The notes beneath the pieces are model-generated. The model made no database searches. It worked only from the letters and a program-made list of their open reading frames with translations, and was not told the origin of the DNA. Shown one piece after another: positions 9,495 through 31,903 of a stretch of 64,000 nt of DNA. The stretch's first letter is position 1. The number at the start of each line of letters is the position of its first letter. The position numbers and the translations under genes were made by a program. The DNA lies in the sequence record PZ386955.1, one strand, 5' to 3'. The stretch is from a phage.

Positions 9495-10901
9495 ATGGCA
9501 ACTTTTCGTGATAAGGTAGTTTCCGTAACCCTTACCTACGGTGCTACTTCAATTAGTGAAACACAGTTTGATATCCCTCTAATTCTTACAGGGCATAACG
9601 TTACTGGAAATCTTGTAGATTATTTCACTTCTTCAGACGCACTTCTGCAAGCAGGTTTTGGCACTGCCGATCCAGCTTATAAAATGGCAAAACTACTATT
9701 TGACGGTCTGTTCGCACCAGAACAAGTTATCGTCGGTAAGCGTGATGTTTCTAAAACGACTCTAACTCCAGTAGTTGAAGATAGTGCAACTTACGTTATC
9801 ACTATTAAAGCAAATTCAAAAAGCAAGGACTTCAAGTTTGTTGCCGATGATACTGCAACTGCTCAAGAGATTGTTGTTGGTTTAACAGAAATGATCAACG
9901 CAGACGTAGTGTATAAAGAATTTTTCACTGTGTCAAACGATGGTAGTGTTATCACTGTAACCCCAGTTGCAGGTAAATACGCTACTATGGATAGTTCAGG
10001 ATTCACAACTAACGTAGAATATGCAAATGATATCTTAGAAGATATTGCTAAAATTGCAGACTATGAAAACAGTTGGTTCTGGTTACTATCTGATTCTCAC
10101 GCAGAACAAGATATTATCGATCTAGCAGGTTATGTAGAAGAGCACGATAAAGTGTATTTCTTCTCTACCTCGCAACCAGGTGTTCTAACTAAAGAAGAAG
10201 ATAACATTCTAGAACGCTTAGGTGATATGGGCTACAATAACACTTGTATGGCATTGTGGATGACTAACGCTGATACAGTGTTCCCAGAAGCTGCTGTAGT
10301 TGGTTCTATCTGCTCTGCAACACCAGGTACTACTACCCTGCATGGTAAAACCCTTGTTGGTATCGAGATTGAAAAACTTGGTCAGACAGCAGAAAACTTT
10401 ATCGTTCAACAGAATGGTAATATTTACCGTAAAGAACACGGTGTTCTGTTCTACCGTGATGGCTTCATGGTTAGTGGTTTCTATGTTGACTATGTGGTAC
10501 ACGCTCTGTGGTTCAAAGCTCGCGTAGAAGAATCTCTGTTCGCTCTATTCAAGCAGCAATCTATGCTTGGTAGTGGTGTTAGAGCAACTTCTGCTGGTCT
10601 TGCTTTGATTCGTCAGGCTGTTACTGCAAACCCAATCCAAGTAGGTATTAACAATGGTTCTATTGCCAATGAGGTAGTAACTTCAGAGGAAACAGGACTT
10701 CTGGTAAGCCTTAAACCTACTATCTATATCCCATCTCGTGCAGATATGACTGATGCTCAAATCAATGCACGTTTGGTTGATGGTATGGTTATTGAATACG
10801 TATATGCTGGATTCTTCCACTATGTTAAAGTGCAGGTAAACGTTCTGACGAACCGCACTGCAAATAGCCAGAATTCCAATAGCTCTACTGTATCTTCATA
10901 A
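9495..10901 (+). CDS. Tail sheath protein
   Basis: 468-aa ORF immediately upstream of a ~160-aa tube-like ORF, with its own terminator; size and synteny typical of contractile-tail sheath. Confidence 0.65.
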   Translation: MATFRDKVVSVTLTYGATSISETQFDIPLILTGHNVTGNLVDYFTSSDALLQAGFGTADPAYKMAKLLFDGLFAPEQVIVGKRDVSKTTLTPVVEDSATYVITIKANSKSKDFKFVADDTATAQEIVVGLTEMINADVVYKEFFTVSNDGSVITVTPVAGKYATMDSSGFTTNVEYANDILEDIAKIADYENSWFWLLSDSHAEQDIIDLAGYVEEHDKVYFFSTSQPGVLTKEEDNILERLGDMGYNNTCMALWMTNADTVFPEAAVVGSICSATPGTTTLHGKTLVGIEIEKLGQTAENFIVQQNGNIYRKEHGVLFYRDGFMVSGFYVDYVVHALWFKARVEESLFALFKQQSMLGSGVRATSAGLALIRQAVTANPIQVGINNGSIANEVVTSEETGLLVSLKPTIYIPSRADMTDAQINARLVDGMVIEYVYAGFFHYVKVQVNVLTNRTANSQNSNSSTVSS

Positions 10902-10909
10902 TTAAAAGC

Positions 10910-10933
10910 AGCGGGGGAAACCCCGCTTATATG
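10910..10933 (+). terminator. Stem-loop / weak terminator after the sheath gene
   Basis: AGCGGGG-GAAA-CCCCGCT hairpin followed by TATATG. Confidence 0.45.
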
Positions 10934-10959
10934 AAAAGTAGTATAAAAGGAGATCCACT

Positions 10960-11439
10960 TTGGATAAAATGCTTACTGGCGTAATGGCCTATGATCCTTC
11001 TCAAGTAATCCTGTCTTTGGGTGGTTGGGAACCTTGGGGTTTCGCCGCAGATACCAAAATTGTTATTAACAAAACTAACGATATCATCAACCCATATTCA
11101 GGTACTGATGGTGACGTTTCCTTGGCTCTTAGTCGTAACCGTTTAGGTACGCTAACAATGTCACTGCAACGTACTTCCCCAGCAAACGAAGTTCTTGCTG
11201 CTTATGCACAAACGATGTATTCTACTCGTCAAGTAGCATTTAGCGTATATCTAGAAGACCCTCGCGGATATTATATCAGCACAATTGGTTGGATTCAAAG
11301 CCAACCGGACGACACTATTGGTGAAACTATTCAAGAAAACCAATGGGTAATTGGTCTTAAAGATGCAAGCCTACTTCGTTCTACTGTAGGTGTTGGTGTT
11401 AACGCACTTAACTCTATTAGTGCTCTAACTATTCAGTAA
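10960..11439 (+). CDS. Tail tube protein
   Basis: 159-aa ORF after sheath with AAGGAGAT RBS and TTG start; followed by a strong terminator. Confidence 0.6.
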   Translation: MDKMLTGVMAYDPSQVILSLGGWEPWGFAADTKIVINKTNDIINPYSGTDGDVSLALSRNRLGTLTMSLQRTSPANEVLAAYAQTMYSTRQVAFSVYLEDPRGYYISTIGWIQSQPDDTIGETIQENQWVIGLKDASLLRSTVGVGVNALNSISALTIQ

Positions 11440-11443
11440 CAAA

Positions 11444-11470
11444 AAGGGCAGAAATGCCCTTTATTTTTAA
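11444..11470 (+). terminator. Rho-independent terminator after the tube gene
   Basis: AAGGGCA-GAAA-TGCCCTT hairpin followed by TATTTTTAA. Confidence 0.65.
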
Positions 11471-11482
11471 AGAGAGGAAATA

Positions 11483-11965
11483 ATGGAACAACAAAAAGAT
11501 AATACTATTGCAAAATTTGCTCGTCCAGAAGTAATGGTTGAAATTGATCTGGATGAAGGACGCAGTGTAAAATTTAGAGTTCTCAAGTGGAGTCCAACTA
11601 AAGTTTTTGAAAGGATTCCAGAACTAGGTAGTGTACTAGCTGTTCCTATGACAATGTATAATACTGCTCTTATGTCAGCAGACGAAGATCTAGAAGCTCG
11701 TATTGCTATGGCGCTGATCCAATTATTCAGTGGTCTGGAAGAAAAAAACTTAGCCGCATTCTTACGTAAAATTTTAGATGAAGTTTACACAGAAGCAGGT
11801 CACAGTGTTTCCGATAATTTTGATGAATTGTTTTTTGCTCACCCAGAATTAGTTGTTGACTTAGCTGCAAAAGTTCTTGAGGTGAACTATGCCCCTTTTT
11901 TCAAACGAGGTTTCGGAAAACTGTTGACCCAATTTCAAGGAATAGAGACTCTAGCGAAGAGTTAA
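11483..11965 (+). CDS. Tail assembly chaperone (lambda G-like)
   Basis: Acidic 160-aa ORF between tube and tape measure genes; contains slippery heptamer TTTTTTC near its 3' end. Confidence 0.6.
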   Translation: MEQQKDNTIAKFARPEVMVEIDLDEGRSVKFRVLKWSPTKVFERIPELGSVLAVPMTMYNTALMSADEDLEARIAMALIQLFSGLEEKNLAAFLRKILDEVYTEAGHSVSDNFDELFFAHPELVVDLAAKVLEVNYAPFFKRGFGKLLTQFQGIETLAKS

Positions 11966-12240
11966 GTCCGGCAATTAAATCAGCAATTGAAATTGCCTCA
12001 CAAACCCTTAGCTTGACATGGTATGAAGTAATTCTTTGTAAGGTAATTAAGAATACCTCCGAAACCTTGTCCTCGTTAGATAATTACGGTGTAGATTATC
12101 TACTTAAAATTTATGAATATTTAACATTTGAAGACTATGTACAAGATCTTCACGTTAAAGATGCGGATATTAAACGTGGTCAACAGAGAACAATAAGAGA
12201 ACTGGATACGGCTATGAAAAAATTAATTCCAGATTCATAA
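11483..12240 (+). CDS. Tail assembly chaperone, predicted -1 frameshift extended isoform (GT-like)
   Basis: The -1 frame is open from the slippery site at 11896-11902 through track ORF 12013..12240 with no stop; conserved position before the tape measure gene. Confidence 0.5.
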
Positions 12241-12259
12241 GTAATACGGAGGATTACCC

Positions 12260-14239
12260 TTGTTAGAAATTAACACTTCCAAGATTAAGAATACAGTAAC
12301 GTTTACTGTAGATAAAGACAGTTTAAAAAATACTAAAGACGCAATTAAAAACCTTAAAACTTTTACAGAATCTATTGAACCATCTTTAAATATGACTAAA
12401 ATGCGTCGTCAGTTTAAAAGTATGGAAGAGTATGCTAAAAGAATAAGGCAGCAAATGTCAGGTCTTGGCGGCGGTAATCCTCCACCAATCCCACCAACCG
12501 GAGGTTCAAGTGGTGGTGGAAAAGGAGGAAGTGGCAGAGGTGGTTCTGGATCTTCTGGAGGACGTAAGACACCGGAGGAAAGAGCCGCAGAAGCCGCCGC
12601 TAAACGTGCAGCACTTGCTAATATGAAGCAAGACGATTTTAGTTTTAAAGCTATGCCTTTTACAAAAGCAGACAGCAGAATTCTAGAAAAATCTAAGAAG
12701 ATTGTAGAAGAAACTGTTGAACTTTATCGTAAAGGTGTGATTACTAGCCAACAAATGAACAATACTTTGGCTAGACAGTTAGAAGAACTACGCAGATCTC
12801 ATAAAGAGAAGAATGCACAACTTCTTGATGAAGAGAGAGCTAGACGTAGAATTGCCCGTCTGCAAGAAGCAGAAGATAAAAGAAGACAGCGTGTTCGAGA
12901 AAGAGAAAGAAAGGAGTTCGAACGTCAGCAAAGGAGAGAAAAAGAAGCAAGACAGCGAGATAGACAACGTAAGCTATCTGGCGTAGGTAATGCTGCTATT
13001 GCTCTTAACCCTGCTATGTTTGGTGCTGCTCTTTTAGGTGCTGGTTTATATCAAGGCATAAGCAAAATAGCTGAAAGTATCACAACTGCGGCAGAACGTA
13101 TTAATATGGTTAGTAAAGGTGGTCAGAACGTACAGGTAAACCCTAATGCAATTTTAACAATGCGTACTTGGGGTGAGATGAACGGTGTAGACTCTGCCAG
13201 CATTATTAAAGCCATTGACAATATTAAAGACGTTCGTGAACGTTTAGGTAATACTGTACTCCACTCTGAATTTGATGAAAAATCAGGTAAATGGAAAGGT
13301 GGAGATAGTGGTATTAATGAAATCATGAACCAATTTGGTTGGTCGAAAGAAGATGTTGCTAAATTCCAGAACAGACCTTTAGACTTTGTTCAAGCACTTG
13401 TTAATGAAGGTCAAAAAAGAGGAATGAACTCCGCGCAAATTGGTCGTTTGATGGAAAACCTTGGTGATGACTTAATGCACTACCAACGTATGTTTTTGGA
13501 TAACGGTAAAGAGTACATGAAAGTCTTGGATATGTTAAAAAATTCAGGAGCCACTCTTAACGATGAAAACATCAAAGCAGCACAAGATTTTGTTAAGCTA
13601 AGAGCACAAATTAGTGCAGCAGGAGAAGGTTTTACCAATAACTTACTTATAGGATTTATGGATGGTTTAAAATCTGCACCAGATTTTGCAGAGAATATGA
13701 AAACTTTCCAAGAAGCTGCTCGTGGTCTTGGTGAAATGTCTGGTAGTATTGTAAGTAGCCTTGCAAAAATTGCGAAATATTTCCTTGATTTTTCAAATAA
13801 GGTTGGGCCAAAAAACAATACTAAAGAAGCTGTAAGAGATTATTATAATGGTACGCAGTATGGGTACGATGCACAGGTTGGTGGTAATCCTTGGGCTTAT
13901 TGGCCTATTGGAAGAGATCAACATCTACCTGAAAATCAACCTTTAGGTAACTTTGATAGTAGTTTCTTAACTAGTGCCTTAAACCCAAGTGCTTCTAGTA
14001 TCGGTTACAATAGACCTGATTTAACAGCATCTATGCTAACACCACGCCAAGGTGTTCCAGTACCGTTAAGTGTAGAGAATACGGTTGTTATCCCAGACAA
14101 CGCATTCCAGATTAATGTTATTCCAGATGGCTATGGTTTTAGTAATTATCTAGATGCGACAATGAATACCAGTTTTAGTAACTTCTCACAAGGTTTAACT
14201 CTTCAGTTAAGCAGTGGACAATCTTCTACTGGTGGTTAA
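12260..14239 (+). CDS. Tail tape measure protein
   Basis: 659 aa, Gly-rich linker (GGGNPPPIPPTGGSSGGGKGGSG), charged coiled-coil region, hydrophobic GA-rich segment; follows the chaperone pair. Confidence 0.75.
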   Translation: MLEINTSKIKNTVTFTVDKDSLKNTKDAIKNLKTFTESIEPSLNMTKMRRQFKSMEEYAKRIRQQMSGLGGGNPPPIPPTGGSSGGGKGGSGRGGSGSSGGRKTPEERAAEAAAKRAALANMKQDDFSFKAMPFTKADSRILEKSKKIVEETVELYRKGVITSQQMNNTLARQLEELRRSHKEKNAQLLDEERARRRIARLQEAEDKRRQRVRERERKEFERQQRREKEARQRDRQRKLSGVGNAAIALNPAMFGAALLGAGLYQGISKIAESITTAAERINMVSKGGQNVQVNPNAILTMRTWGEMNGVDSASIIKAIDNIKDVRERLGNTVLHSEFDEKSGKWKGGDSGINEIMNQFGWSKEDVAKFQNRPLDFVQALVNEGQKRGMNSAQIGRLMENLGDDLMHYQRMFLDNGKEYMKVLDMLKNSGATLNDENIKAAQDFVKLRAQISAAGEGFTNNLLIGFMDGLKSAPDFAENMKTFQEAARGLGEMSGSIVSSLAKIAKYFLDFSNKVGPKNNTKEAVRDYYNGTQYGYDAQVGGNPWAYWPIGRDQHLPENQPLGNFDSSFLTSALNPSASSIGYNRPDLTASMLTPRQGVPVPLSVENTVVIPDNAFQINVIPDGYGFSNYLDATMNTSFSNFSQGLTLQLSSGQSSTGG

Positions 14240-29147: not shown

Positions 29148-29489
29148 ATGGAGCTAACAGAAGTATGGGATATCGCTAAAGAGGCGATTATCCCTCTTAT
29201 TGGCGTAATCTGGGTGGTCTTCAAACAGAAGATAGATGATATGGCAAGTGATTTGGATAAAATGGAAGACAAATACCGCGAACTAGAAAAGAAGTTGGTG
29301 TTTGTTGAATCCACTTATGCTACCAAAGCAGAACTTGCTCAAATGCTTAACCAGATCAACTCTACATTAATGGCAAATAATACTGCCTTAGAACAGAAGA
29401 TTGAAAAAATAATGGATTTAAAAAATGCTCCTGTTCAATTAATGTTAGAGGAGATTACAAAGCGCACACAAAGTAAGGACAAAAATTAA
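29148..29489 (+). CDS. Hypothetical coiled-coil protein
   Basis: 113 aa, N-terminal hydrophobic segment then charged helical region. Confidence 0.4.
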   Translation: MELTEVWDIAKEAIIPLIGVIWVVFKQKIDDMASDLDKMEDKYRELEKKLVFVESTYATKAELAQMLNQINSTLMANNTALEQKIEKIMDLKNAPVQLMLEEITKRTQSKDKN

Positions 29490-31903
29490 TGGCGAATTTT
29501 CCAACATATCCTGCTACGACACTAGAACAAGGTGTTGATCTGGTTATATTCTCGTCTAACCAGATGCATGATGTTATTAATGGGGATGCTACAGCAACTG
29601 TAGAAACCGAAACAGGTTTAATACCTACACTGCGTAAAGCACTTGTTGATAACTTCTTCTTTAAGAGTCCTGTTGCTTGGTCAGCAGGATCAACTGAAAC
29701 TGTATTTAACCAGTTACGTTATTTTGAAAACGGTATCTTGAGTGGGTACTATTATGCTCCATCTGCCACTACTGCGAACCCTGTACCTATGCAGGGTACA
29801 CCTGTAGGAGACAGTAACTGGACTCTGTACGCTCTTAAAACTGAACAGTTAGCTTCAGATGTGTATCCTTGGTATTTTAAAGGTGCTACAGGATATGAAA
29901 CAGAAATCAGTCCTCCTTATATCTTTGATAATGCTATTGTCACCATTAACGGTGTAATTCAGATTCAAGGTGAAGCATTTACTATCAAAGATAGTAAAAT
30001 TATTCTGGCAGAACCATTAGGTTTAGATCCGTCTACTGGTCTACCTAATAAATTGTTTGCTTTTATTGGTAAAACAACAGCCTCTACTTCTTACGTAGAG
30101 AAAAACCTTTTGTCATCTACCACTGGTGCAGCAATGGTTGGTCTTCCATCTGGAGGCAACCTGTTACAAGCTCAATACTTTGTAACGCCTGAGCAGTTTG
30201 GTGCAATTGGTGATGGAGTTACCGATGATACTCAAGCAATTTTAAAAACCATTACTTTCGCTAACACGAATAACATTCAAGTACGTGCAGATAAGAATTA
30301 TAGATTCACAAGCTCAATTGCTATGTCTGGTATTCGTTGGTATGGTGGTACATTCACTGGTAACGGTGGAACAATGATTTCTACTGTGTCCTGTTGGATG
30401 GAAAACGTTCGCTTTGAAAAATGTTATGTTAAGATGTTAGGTGGTGATTGCCGATTCTATCGTAATATCTTCTCCAACGCAACATCTACAGCAGCATTCT
30501 TAATGCAAGCAATGACAAGTGAAGGTACGTTGGACTTCAGTTACAACGAAATGTATGGTTGTAAATATGCGATCCTGCAACAAGGTACTGGAGAAGTAAT
30601 GACCTACGGGCGTTACTCTAACAACTATATTCACGATATTAAAGGTGATGCTATTGAACTTAACGTAGTTCAAAAACACTACACTGAAGGTTTGATTATC
30701 GAGAATAACCACATTGCTAACGTAGATGCTTCTGGACAAGGGGCAAACTGGGGTATTGGTATTGGTGTAGCAGGTAGTGGCCCATATGGTGTTGATGTTC
30801 CTGATTCACAATATGTACGTAATTTCAGTATCATTGGGAATAGGGTTTACAATTGCCGTCAATGTTTACACGTTGAAATGGGTAAAAACTTCACAATACG
30901 TGATAATGAAGTTTATCCTAACACAGCAGTTTCAACAGGTACAGGTTTAACTACTTGTGGTGTTGCATTATACGGATGCCAAGATTTTGAAGTTGATGGT
31001 TTAACTGGTTATCTGCTTAATGATCCATCTGTTTCAACACGCATGGTCTTTATTGACTGGGGTGTTAACAGTGGAAGATATGCGGGGCCACCAATTAACT
31101 TTACAATTAAGAATTTGGATATTCCAGAATCTTCAATTGAGATTGCAACGGCTGGATCAGATGCCTGGGAAAACTCTACAATTGTTAGTAACATCAATTG
31201 TAATGTTTTTAAATGGCGTGGACTACCATCTAGCTCTACCTTTAATAACATTCGTTGCCGTAGCATTGACTTTATTGGTCAACATGGAAGCGGAGAAGGA
31301 AGTGGTGGCGGTTTCTATACTCGCAGCCAATTCACGTATATGAAGTGGGTAGGATGTACAGCACTTAGCGGAGATGAAACAACAGTTTCTTTTGCTAAAA
31401 TCTACACTGATCGTTGCGATCAGGTTGGAAATAACTTTGGTGTTCCAACTGCTGTTGATGGTACAGGTCATCGTGGGCCAGTTTTAACTACTATCTCTGA
31501 ACAATATTTTACAGCTTATGATGAATTCCCAGGTGGGCGTGAATTCCCTACTGGAACAGTTATTCATTGTGCAAGCGGTAAAAAACATGTTGTTACAGTA
31601 GGTGGTGCTTTCTTTAGTGCCAACGAGAAAATAAAAGCAACTGTTACAGGTCAAACCTATCTACAGTCTAATGCTTTAAACTGGGCTAGTAATGGCTACG
31701 CTAAAGCAGCAGGTACTAAGATTGTTATTCCAGGTGCAGGTGCAAATGGAGGAGATCTTGTGACAACTATAGCACGTGCTACATATGTGACAAATAGTTT
31801 GTACACAATAGATATTGCAGATCCAATTGTAACACCTACAGCAGAGAATACACAAATTAAAGCTCTGAATCCTGTTACTTTTGTTACTGTCAACAATGCT
31901 TAA
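29489..31903 (+). CDS. Tailspike with pectate-lyase-type right-handed beta-helix (putative depolymerase)
   Basis: Motif QFGAIGDGVTDDTQAI typical of the N-terminus of pectate lyase / GH28-like beta-helix domains; 804 aa. Confidence 0.6.
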   Translation: MANFPTYPATTLEQGVDLVIFSSNQMHDVINGDATATVETETGLIPTLRKALVDNFFFKSPVAWSAGSTETVFNQLRYFENGILSGYYYAPSATTANPVPMQGTPVGDSNWTLYALKTEQLASDVYPWYFKGATGYETEISPPYIFDNAIVTINGVIQIQGEAFTIKDSKIILAEPLGLDPSTGLPNKLFAFIGKTTASTSYVEKNLLSSTTGAAMVGLPSGGNLLQAQYFVTPEQFGAIGDGVTDDTQAILKTITFANTNNIQVRADKNYRFTSSIAMSGIRWYGGTFTGNGGTMISTVSCWMENVRFEKCYVKMLGGDCRFYRNIFSNATSTAAFLMQAMTSEGTLDFSYNEMYGCKYAILQQGTGEVMTYGRYSNNYIHDIKGDAIELNVVQKHYTEGLIIENNHIANVDASGQGANWGIGIGVAGSGPYGVDVPDSQYVRNFSIIGNRVYNCRQCLHVEMGKNFTIRDNEVYPNTAVSTGTGLTTCGVALYGCQDFEVDGLTGYLLNDPSVSTRMVFIDWGVNSGRYAGPPINFTIKNLDIPESSIEIATAGSDAWENSTIVSNINCNVFKWRGLPSSSTFNNIRCRSIDFIGQHGSGEGSGGGFYTRSQFTYMKWVGCTALSGDETTVSFAKIYTDRCDQVGNNFGVPTAVDGTGHRGPVLTTISEQYFTAYDEFPGGREFPTGTVIHCASGKKHVVTVGGAFFSANEKIKATVTGQTYLQSNALNWASNGYAKAAGTKIVIPGAGANGGDLVTTIARATYVTNSLYTIDIADPIVTPTAENTQIKALNPVTFVTVNNA

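What the first reader, a model, noticed from the sequence alone, without database searches (positions are those of the whole stretch)
11483..12240. Programmed -1 frameshift site (TTTTTTC) in the tail assembly chaperone upstream of the tape measure gene
Seen in sequence: heptamer T TTT TTC at 11896-11902 in the zero frame of ORF 11483-11965; the -1 frame is open from there through 12240 (joining track ORF 12013-12240, which otherwise begins at a weak TTG). Established knowledge: a G/GT-type chaperone frameshift between tube and tape measure genes is conserved across long-tailed phages. The predicted products are about 160 aa and about 250 aa.
Basis: partly seen in the sequence, partly recalled or inferred. 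Interest (0 to 1): 0.45.

Follow-up and report, generated by a model that had tools for sequence, protein, structure and literature searches.

The report
Tail chaperone -1 frameshift site, confirmed
This phi92-like E. coli phage almost certainly makes a short and a long version of its tail assembly chaperone by letting some ribosomes slip back one base at a fixed TTTTTTC site, which is a well-known phage trick that public annotations of this phage group have missed.

Summary
T_TTT_TTC lies at 11896-11902 in the zero frame of ORF 11483-11965. That ORF is phi92 gp132 (Pfam Phage_TAC_15) and sits between the tube and tape measure genes. The -1 frame is open from 11881 to 12240. A shift would give 160-aa and 252-aa products.

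The heptamer on its own is not beyond chance: 18 copies in the window against about 27 expected. The comparative evidence is what makes the case:
- In 62 of 62 related loci (51 distinct sequences, down to about 25% identity) the C-terminal domain is in the -1 frame.
- The slip-site codons are always TTT TTC, preceded by a T-ending codon. Other conserved Phe codons vary freely.
- An RFR motif just after the site is conserved only in the -1 frame.
- Conserved residues lie upstream of the annotated TTG "start", which encodes an invariant Leu and has no Shine-Dalgarno sequence.

The phi92 clade adds an overlapping C_CCT_TTT heptamer and an upstream GAGGTG. No conserved downstream RNA structure was found.

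None of the 22 annotated GenBank records inspected, and no protein in the collection searched, carries the fusion. The orthologous site is already annotated in phage Moogle and has been proposed for Pakpunavirus and Felix O1 relatives. This is a new member of a known kind.

The parts
10960..11439 (+). Tail tube gene (phi92 gp131). This is the upstream neighbour that defines the chaperone position.
   Evidence: Pfam KPP10_Orf10 at E 4.5e-6. PHROG 280, virion structural protein. Annotated as tail tube protein in KMB37 and SKA64.
11483..11965 (+). Zero-frame chaperone ORF (TAC-N, 160 aa, phi92 gp132). It has an ATG start with the purine-rich GAGAGGAAA just upstream.
   Evidence: Pfam Phage_TAC_15 PF21822 at E 1.6e-22. 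PHROG 3840, tail assembly chaperone, at E 4.4e-54. The AF2 model puts the last confident helix at residues 121-139 and gives residues 141-160 pLDDT below 50.
11879..11884 (+). Shine-Dalgarno-like GAGGTG. It lies 11 nt 5' of T_TTT_TTC and 8 nt 5' of C_CCT_TTT, and is a candidate upstream stimulator.
   Evidence: Sequence. GAGGT is invariant in 10 divergent clade sequences. It is built from codons that are rare in this genome: GAG is 19% of Glu codons and GTG is 10% of Val codons. Its function is inferred, not shown.
11893..11899 (+). First slippery heptamer, C_CCT_TTT, in the zero frame. It is specific to the phi92/Phapecoctavirus clade.
   Evidence: C_CC.U_UU.U belongs to the H_HH.U_UU.Y class, rated most efficient in E. 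coli (PMC4066793).
11896..11902 (+). Second slippery heptamer, T_TTT_TTC, in the zero frame. This is the deeply conserved shift site.
   Evidence: Invariant and in phase in 62 of 62 loci. TTT is 51/51 and TTC is 51/51, while Phe31 and Phe117 use both codons. The preceding codon is TGT, CCT, TCT or AGT, always T-ending. In L040 a -1-frame TAG abuts the heptamer.
11902..12240 (+). -1-frame extension of 112 codons, ending at TAA 12238-40. It is translated only after the shift and yields the 252-aa long form (TAC-NC).
   Evidence: Open frame. The fused proteins of 16 loci align end to end at 244-264 aa. Matches PHROG 16039, 10409 and 8811, all of unknown function.
11908..11916 (+). Arg-Phe-Arg codons (AGG TTT CGG) in the -1 frame, inside the two-frame overlap.
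   Evidence: RFR is present in 34 of 36 distinct sequences. The zero frame at the same bases reads GFG, GFA, GLG, GLD or GFE. RFR is also present in Pakpunavirus Zigelbrucke.
12013..12240 (+). The ORF annotated as the separate gene phi92 gp133 (75 aa, TTG start). It is reinterpreted here as the C-terminal part of the long form.
   Evidence: No SD within -18..-4 of the TTG. No RBS is annotated for it in phi92, unlike most neighbouring genes. The TTG encodes the invariant Leu178 of the S-L-x-W motif and is TTA or CTT in close relatives. The invariant Ala168 (11983-85) lies upstream of it.
12260..14239 (+). Tape measure gene (TTG start, GGAGGA SD at 12249-54). This is the downstream neighbour.
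   Evidence: PHROG 16051, tail length tape measure protein, full-length match. phi92 gp134.
11905..12070 (+). Long-range 13-bp pairing, 11905-11917 with 12058-12070. It was examined as a possible stimulator and is NOT supported.
   Evidence: Present in the MFE and centroid folds of 11870-12260. In 10 clade sequences 67.7% of cells pair, against 67.0% in shuffles, with no covariation. Only a 5-bp GUUUC/GAAAC core is conserved, and both sides of it are fixed by conserved amino acids.

Best explanation
This is a programmed -1 ribosomal frameshift of the lambda G/GT type in the tail assembly chaperone gene of a phi92-like myophage.

Most ribosomes translate 11483-11965 and release the 160-aa chaperone. 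A minority slip back one base on the run C_CCU_UUU_UUC (11893-11902). At that point tRNA-Phe occupies the A site, with tRNA-Phe or tRNA-Pro in the P site, and both tRNAs re-pair in the -1 frame. Slippage at either heptamer gives the same peptide, ...NYAPFF-QTRFRK...

Those ribosomes continue to the TAA at 12238-40 and make a 252-aa long form. This form has the chaperone domain, a short linker that starts with a conserved RFR, and a conserved C-terminal domain.

By analogy with lambda gpG/gpGT, both forms would coat the tape measure protein, and the extra domain of the rare long form would recruit the tube protein. Neither form would end up in the virion.

What is shown here: the site, its phase, the open frame, the conservation, selection on the -1 frame, and the lack of an independent start. 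What is inferred: that slippage occurs on the ribosome, its efficiency, a stimulatory role for the upstream GAGGUG, and the roles of the two proteins.
For: - Anatomy.
- Family and position: Pfam PF21822 and PHROG 3840; sheath, tube and tape measure neighbours.
- Conservation: the two-frame arrangement is seen in 371 phage records by tblastn. In 62 of 62 fetched loci the C-domain is in the -1 frame and T_TTT_TTC is in phase.
- Synonymous-site control: F139 is TTT 51/51 and F140 is TTC 51/51. F31 is 26 TTT and 23 TTC; F117 is 20 and 30. Y136, three codons upstream, uses both codons. The preceding codon is always T-ending across four different codons.
- -1-frame selection starts 3 codons after the site: RFR in 34/36.
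- In many loci the first possible start codon of the -1 ORF lies downstream of the conserved S-L-x-W motif, and SD motifs are absent.
- The -1 frame is closed a few codons upstream of the heptamer in most loci, and in L040 directly before it.
- Both heptamers are in the class that is most efficient in E. coli (PMC4066793).
- The same T_TTT_TTC in the same N-(F/Y)-G-x-F-F context occurs in a Felix O1-like phage. [quoted passage not shown] A conserved -1 PRF with a GTTTTT motif was proposed for the related Vandenendeviridae and Andersonviridae (PMC12846349).
Against: - There is no experimental evidence for the fusion protein in this phage group in the literature that could be searched.
- No conserved downstream RNA stimulator was found. 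The local fold has z -1.39, and the long-range stem shows no covariation. Efficiency therefore cannot be guessed.
- The SD-like element is absent in some Vequintavirinae, such as CR3 with TGAAGT, so it is not a universal part of the signal.
- A T6 run could in principle also support RNA polymerase slippage, which would give the identical protein.
- One of the two peptide patterns used to fetch IMG/VR loci contained 'FF'. That pre-selects the dipeptide but not its codons. The GenBank loci were found without it.
Confidence: 0.86

Rival explanations
1. Transcriptional slippage. RNA polymerase occasionally adds one extra U on the T6 run. Ribosomes then read such transcripts normally and enter what is the -1 frame of the DNA, producing the same 252-aa protein.
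For: The site is a homopolymer run of six T, and it is conserved. The protein product would be identical (...APFFQTR...), so none of the coding-sequence evidence separates the two mechanisms. [quoted passage not shown]
Against: - Six bases is shorter than the runs of about 8-9 that are known, from my own knowledge, to give appreciable slippage by bacterial RNA polymerase.
- The run is never lengthened to T7, although TTT is synonymous at F140: TTC is 51/51.
- The run is always in the exact X_XXY_YYZ phase. In the phi92 clade it is extended on the 5' side by CCC, which creates a second ribosomal heptamer but does not lengthen the homopolymer.
- U_UU.U_UU.C is an experimentally efficient ribosomal shift motif in E. 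coli.
Confidence: 0.07
2. Two separate genes, as annotated in GenBank. gp133 would be translated on its own from the TTG at 12013 (or by re-initiation after the gp132 stop), and the heptamer would be incidental.
For: All 22 annotated GenBank records inspected list either two separate CDS or only the first one. The 75-aa protein is present in databases as Phi92_gp133.
Against: - There is no SD before the TTG, and no RBS is annotated for it in phi92, unlike most neighbouring genes.
- The TTG is the codon of an invariant Leu and is TTA or CTT in close relatives.
- Annotated 'starts' of the homologues are scattered, giving products of 38 to 88 aa.
- In the CR3-, KB57- and L026-type loci the first ATG, GTG or TTG lies well inside the conserved domain.
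- Invariant or near-invariant residues (R143, F144, R145, A168) lie upstream of the TTG, and three of them are upstream of the gp132 stop.
- The -1 frame is never interrupted between heptamer and stop in 62 loci.
Confidence: 0.04
3. Non-programmed coincidence or decay. The downstream frame would be a remnant and the slippery run would have no function.
For: TTTTTTC by itself is not enriched in the window.
Against: The arrangement is conserved with saturated synonymous change elsewhere in the gene. It spans phages of Escherichia, Klebsiella, Salmonella, Cronobacter, Pectobacterium, Acinetobacter, Aeromonas and Pseudomonas.
Confidence: 0.01

Closest known systems
Phage lambda gpG / gpGT tail assembly chaperones (Levin 1993; Xu, Hendrix & Duda 2004, 2013, 2014, as summarised in PMC5009743)
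   Same: The gene sits directly upstream of the tape measure gene. There is a -1 shift near the 3' end on an X_XXY_YYZ heptamer. The result is a short abundant form and a rare long form with an extra C-terminal domain.
   Different: Lambda is a siphovirus and uses G_GGA_AAG (from my own knowledge). Here the tail is contractile and the site is U_UUU_UUC, with an overlapping C_CCU_UUU. There is no detectable sequence similarity to lambda G/T. The product ratio and protein contacts are untested here.
[quoted passage not shown]
   Same: This appears to be the orthologous site. Felixounavirus H12 has ...AAC TTC GGA AGT TTT TTC..., which is the same T_TTT_TTC, the same phase and the same N-(F/Y)-G-x-F-F context, with a -1 ORF of 106 codons. 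The BFVD search also returned the Moogle chaperone.
   Different: Protein identity is too low for tblastn to link them. Felix O1-like phages have HFQ where this group has RFR after the site. They lack the CCC extension.
Pakpunavirus / Vandenendeviridae TAC-N / TAC-NC with conserved GTTTTT (PMC12846349)
   Same: It has the same module order and the same T6C run at the end of TAC-N. RFR follows in the -1 frame (Zigelbrucke). The paper uses the same argument from an uninterrupted -1 frame across many genomes.
   Different: In Zigelbrucke the run is phased G_GTT_TTT_TCT, so it is not a canonical X_XXY_YYZ heptamer in the zero frame. In the window it is canonical and doubled. That paper did not analyse the chaperone locus of Stephanstirmvirinae or Vequintavirinae.
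Phage P2 E / E+E' (myovirus tail chaperone frameshift; Christie 2002, from my own knowledge; efficiency note in PMC5009743)
   Same: A contractile-tail phage with a -1 shift on a T-rich heptamer between the tube and tape measure genes.
   Different: There is no sequence relationship. As I recall, the P2 site is T_TTT_TTG.
E. coli dnaX gamma/tau -1 frameshift
   Same: A slippery heptamer with a Shine-Dalgarno-like sequence about 10 nt upstream. Here GAGGUG lies 11 nt upstream.
   Different: dnaX also needs a strong downstream hairpin, and none is conserved here. The dnaX shift truncates the protein, whereas here it extends it.

Membership tests
G/GT-type tail assembly chaperone with programmed -1 frameshift | The gene lies between the major tail (tube) gene and the tape measure gene. 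| tested here: met
   Sheath 9495-10901, tube 10960-11439, chaperone 11483-11965 and tape measure 12260-14239.
G/GT-type tail assembly chaperone with programmed -1 frameshift | A second ORF overlaps the 3' end of the first, in the -1 frame. | tested here: met
   The -1 frame is open 11881-12240 and overlaps the zero frame by 85 nt. The +1 frame is closed.
G/GT-type tail assembly chaperone with programmed -1 frameshift | A slippery X_XXY_YYZ heptamer in the zero-frame phase lies inside the overlap. | tested here: met
   T_TTT_TTC at 11896-11902 and C_CCT_TTT at 11893-11899.
G/GT-type tail assembly chaperone with programmed -1 frameshift | The arrangement is conserved among relatives despite sequence divergence. 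| tested here: met
   62 of 62 loci, with zero synonymous change in the heptamer while other codons are saturated. It extends to Felix O1-like and Pakpunavirus outgroups.
G/GT-type tail assembly chaperone with programmed -1 frameshift | The downstream ORF has no translation start of its own. | tested here: met
   There is no SD. The TTG is an invariant Leu codon. Conserved residues lie upstream of it. Candidate start codons are not conserved.
G/GT-type tail assembly chaperone with programmed -1 frameshift | Sequence or fold relationship to recognised tail assembly chaperones. | tested here: met
G/GT-type tail assembly chaperone with programmed -1 frameshift | A fusion protein is actually made, at a low fixed ratio to the short form. 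| not testable with these tools
   This needs mass spectrometry, western blot or reporter assays.
G/GT-type tail assembly chaperone with programmed -1 frameshift | Both forms are required for tail assembly and both are absent from virions. | not testable with these tools
   This needs genetics and virion proteomics.
dnaX-type stimulated -1 frameshift signal | A Shine-Dalgarno-like element about 10-14 nt upstream of the heptamer. | tested here: inconclusive
   GAGGTG is present 11 nt upstream, made of rare codons and invariant within the clade. It is absent in CR3-type relatives, and the same bases also encode the conserved Glu-Val.
dnaX-type stimulated -1 frameshift signal | A stable, conserved stem-loop or pseudoknot 5-9 nt downstream. 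| tested here: not met
   The local fold has z -1.39. RNAalifold keeps only a 5-bp long-range core at -4.35 kcal/mol with no covariation. The named 13-bp stem does not differ from shuffles.
Transcriptional slippage site | A homopolymer run long enough for RNA polymerase slippage (about 8-9 or more, from my own knowledge). | tested here: not met
   The run is exactly T6 followed by C in all 51 distinct sequences.

The most novel reading that the evidence does not exclude
The phi92/Phapecoctavirus lineage may have upgraded an ancient single-heptamer chaperone frameshift into a compound signal. The signal would comprise two overlapping high-efficiency heptamers (C_CCU_UUU_UUC) and an internal Shine-Dalgarno sequence (GAGGUG) at dnaX-like spacing, with no RNA structure. 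This would set a different, probably higher, long-to-short ratio than in rV5-like relatives. The near-invariant Arg-Phe-Arg encoded immediately after the shift would then be a functional element of the long form, or of the shift itself through the nascent chain, rather than a passive linker.
Probability: 0.2. Interest if true: 0.4.

Novelty: new member of a known kind. Interest (0 to 1): 0.3.

Why it matters
The phi92-, rV5-, PVP-SE1- and CR3-like myophages are widely isolated and are used as therapeutic and biocontrol candidates. At least 371 GenBank genomes carry this locus.

None of the 22 annotated records inspected joins the two ORFs. The downstream part is listed as a hypothetical protein with an arbitrary start, or is omitted. 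The 252-aa product is absent from a collection of about 15 billion proteins.

Recognising the frameshift has three uses. It corrects the annotation. It removes a spurious 'hypothetical gene' family (PHROG 16039, 10409 and 8811). It shows that one slip site has been kept unchanged across a very broad supergroup of contractile-tail phages: Stephanstirmvirinae, Vequintavirinae, Felix O1-like and Pakpunavirus-like.

It does not reveal a new mechanism.

Tried and rejected
1. A local downstream stimulatory hairpin. The fold of 11903-12000 is not better than shuffles (z -1.39).
2. A 13-bp long-range stem, 11905-17 with 12058-70. It appears in the MFE fold. It was rejected because pairing in 10 clade sequences equals the shuffled control, and third-codon changes break pairs without compensation. 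Its conserved 5-bp core is explained by the conserved amino acids on both sides.
3. A consensus structure over 16 Vequintavirinae sequences. RNAalifold predicts no pairs. A hand-named 5-bp helix there does show covariation, but it has no conserved counterpart in the window's clade.
4. A search for in-frame natural fusions or annotated fusion proteins. There were none: all 45 homologues are 151-175 aa, and the exact fusion is not on record.
5. A PDB sequence search with the fused-protein profile gave only chance-level hits.
Only TAC-N was modelled.
7. Literature searches for a published frameshift in phi92/rV5-group phages found nothing specific.
8. A whole-window scan for other frameshift candidates found only an artefact at 31208.

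Full report
**What the window is.** Bases 10900-12400 are 100% identical to Escherichia phage Nernie and 99.8% identical to phage phi92 (genus Justusliebigvirus, subfamily Stephanstirmvirinae). The local gene order on the + strand is:
- a Phage_tail_terminator_9 (neck terminator) protein, 8773-9474;
- sheath, 9495-10901 (DUF3383);
- tube, 10960-11439;
- ORF 11483-11965, which is phi92 gp132 (Pfam Phage_TAC_15 at E 1.6e-22; PHROG 3840 'tail assembly chaperone' at E 4e-54);
- ORF 12013-12240, which is phi92 gp133, a hypothetical protein;
- tape measure, 12260-14239.

A terminator-like hairpin follows the tube gene and a strong one follows the tape measure gene. Nothing separates the chaperone, the gp133 region and the tape measure gene.

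**Checking the observation.** The sequence reads GAG GTG AAC TAT GCC CCT TTT TTC AAA CGA in the frame of 11483-11965. T_TTT_TTC at 11896-11902 is therefore a canonical X_XXY_YYZ heptamer in phase. C_CCT_TTT at 11893-11899 is a second, overlapping one.

The -1 frame has a TGA at 11878-80 and is then open to the TAA at 12238-40, 119 codons. The +1 frame closes after 7 codons. A shift at either heptamer gives the same 252-aa protein, 140 zero-frame residues followed by 112 -1-frame residues, with the junction ...NYAPFF/QTRFRK.... The short product is 160 aa.

The motif alone is not remarkable. It occurs 18 times on both strands, against 26.9 expected. Among 93 in-phase slippery heptamers in ORFs of at least 100 aa, only this locus has a real long -1 extension. 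The other hit is a spurious ORF nested inside gene 29489-31903.

**Comparative evidence.** A tblastn search with the fused protein found 371 phage records. The match is nearly always in two pieces in two frames. The records span Stephanstirmvirinae, Vequintavirinae (rV5, PVP-SE1/Seunavirus, CR3/phiTE Certrevirus, KB57 Mydovirus), Acinetobacter ABPH49 and Aeromonas Plateaulakevirus. I fetched 19 GenBank loci and 43 IMG/VR loci.

In 62 of 62 analysable loci the C-terminal domain is in the -1 frame relative to the N-terminal domain. In all of them T_TTT_TTC lies in the zero-frame phase inside the overlap.

A codon-level control on 51 distinct sequences shows the constraint is at the nucleotide level:
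- The two Phe codons of the site are TTT in 51/51 and TTC in 51/51.
- Other conserved Phe positions use both codons freely: F31 is 26 TTT and 23 TTC; F117 is 20 and 30.
- Tyr136, three codons upstream, is 14 TAT and 37 TAC.
- The codon before the run is TGT, CCT, TCT or AGT. That is three different amino acids, and the codon always ends in T.

**The -1 frame is translated from the slip site onward.** Three to five codons after the heptamer, still inside the overlap, the -1 frame reads Arg-Phe-Arg in 34 of 36 distinct sequences. The zero frame at the same bases reads GFG, GFA, GLG, GLD or GFE. For example, GGT TTA GGA in rV5-like phages changes Phe to Leu in frame 0 but is CGG-to-AGG synonymous in frame -1.

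The fused proteins of 16 divergent loci align over their whole length at 244-264 aa. Invariant A168, L178 and W180 and near-invariant R143, F144 and R145 lie downstream of the junction. A168 (11983-85) lies between the gp132 stop and the annotated TTG start.

The TTG itself encodes the invariant Leu of an S-L-x-W motif. It is TTA or CTT in close relatives. No SD precedes it. In many loci the first ATG, GTG or TTG of the -1 ORF lies deep inside the conserved domain. Annotators accordingly gave the homologues scattered starts, producing proteins of 38-88 aa, or left them out.

The shift window is narrow. The -1 frame is closed a few codons upstream of the heptamer in most loci. In IMG/VR locus L040 a -1-frame TAG directly abuts the T run.

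**Mechanism.** Both heptamers belong to the H_HH.U_UU.Y class, which Sharma et al. rated among the most efficient -1 motifs in E. coli. U_UU.U_UU.C is under-represented in E. coli genes (PMC4066793). The CCC extension that creates the second heptamer is specific to the phi92/Phapecoctavirus clade. rV5-like phages have TGT TTT TTC.

Eleven bases upstream lies GAGGTG, which is complementary to the 16S rRNA 3' end. It is invariant as GAGGT in 10 divergent clade members. It is built from codons that are rare in this 38% G+C genome: GAG is 19% of Glu codons and GTG is 10% of Val codons. Its spacing resembles the dnaX stimulator. However, it is absent in CR3-like phages, and its bases also encode the conserved Glu-Val, so its role is inferred only.

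I found no conserved downstream structure:
- The local fold is unexceptional (z -1.39).
- A 13-bp long-range stem (11905-17 with 12058-70) appears in the MFE fold. It shows no covariation, and pairing equals the shuffled controls.

Low-level, structure-independent slippage, as in lambda G/GT, is the most economical reading. In lambda the 30:1 ratio of the two forms matters for assembly (PMC5009743).

**Rivals.**
- Transcriptional slippage on T6 would give the identical protein and cannot be excluded from sequence alone. Against it: the run is short, it is never extended to T7 although that would be synonymous, it is always in ribosomal phase, and it is extended in this clade by C rather than T.
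- Independent translation of gp133 is contradicted by the start-codon, SD and upstream-conservation data.
- Coincidence is excluded by the conservation.

**Relation to what is known.** The G/GT-type frameshift is a textbook feature of long-tailed phages. The same T_TTT_TTC, in the same N-(F/Y)-G-x-F-F context, is present in a Felix O1-like phage. A T6C run followed by RFR in the -1 frame is present in a Pakpunavirus. [quoted passage not shown] A December 2025 paper proposed a conserved -1 PRF with a GTTTTT motif for Vandenendeviridae and Andersonviridae and noted their kinship with Vequintavirinae, but it did not analyse this locus in the phi92/rV5 groups.

For the window's own group, none of the 22 annotated records inspected carries a joined CDS. 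That includes the RefSeq phi92 record and the carefully annotated Murica record. The fusion sequence is not in the protein collection, and no homologue longer than 175 aa was found.

**Verdict.** This is an ordinary instance of a known recoding device. It is very well supported computationally, unannotated in this phage group, and lacks experimental confirmation.

Noticed in passing
Loci L004-L059 (alignment A3, columns 14-18 with 115-119); e.g. L009:1570-1574 with L009:1662-1666: In Vequintavirinae (not the window's clade) a 5-bp helix starts 6-7 nt after the heptamer. Its 3' arm lies just downstream of the zero-frame stop, about 90 nt away. Two of its pairs switch between G-C and A-U in 5 of 16 sequences each. 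81% of cells pair, against 25-41% in slid controls, and 0 of 500 shuffles reach this. RNAalifold did not find it. The switches may be only one or two events on the tree.
   Followed up: partly
window 11443-11462: A terminator-like hairpin (8 bp, followed by a T run) lies in the 43-nt gap between the tube gene and the chaperone gene, and it scores on both strands. It could attenuate transcription after the abundant tube gene. Murica has a terminator annotated at the equivalent place.
   Followed up: no
window 11743-11749: A second in-phase slippery heptamer, A_AAA_AAC (GAA GAA AAA AAC), lies inside the chaperone gene. The -1 frame closes about 10 codons later, so a slip there would only truncate the protein.
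   Followed up: no
window 11872-11888: A small hairpin, AGUUC/GAACU, with the SD-like GAGGU in its loop lies directly upstream of the slip site. It is kept in 10 clade sequences but without covariation, and all positions are also fixed by the K-V-L-E-V-N-Y coding.
   Followed up: partly
window 1-42146, + strand: TTTTTTC occurs only once on the + strand in the first 42 kb, and that copy is the frameshift site. The other 6 + strand copies lie beyond 42 kb, and 11 copies are on the - strand. This would fit avoidance of the motif in the sense strand of the structural genes, but gene orientation across the window was not checked.
   Followed up: no
window 31020-31343: This 107-aa ORF is nested in another frame of the 804-aa gene 29489-31903 and is almost certainly spurious. 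It produced the only other 'long -1 extension' in the whole-window heptamer scan.
   Followed up: yes
window 9495-10901 (phi92 record positions 66790-66882): The RefSeq phi92 record annotates a 'Hypothetical tRNA' inside the sheath gene. ARAGORN finds no tRNA anywhere in the window.
   Followed up: partly
GenBank MG065639, MG065645, MG065656, MG065689: Records named 'Campylobacter phage' with host Campylobacter jejuni are 99.9% identical to this E. coli phi92-like phage over the query. Others of the same series match rV5-like phages. The host labels look doubtful.
   Followed up: no
L011 (phiTE) 1970-3070; L019 (Aeromonas 4L372XY) 2167-3324: In phiTE and in the Aeromonas phage, one or two extra ORFs are inserted between the end of the chaperone -1 extension and the tape measure gene. 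The chaperone is therefore not always immediately adjacent to the tape measure gene in this supergroup.
   Followed up: no
L004 (phage V18, NC_041937) 1974-3074: The tape measure gene of V18 is annotated as two overlapping CDS (1974-2813 and 2810 onward). This suggests a frameshift or sequencing error in that record.
   Followed up: no
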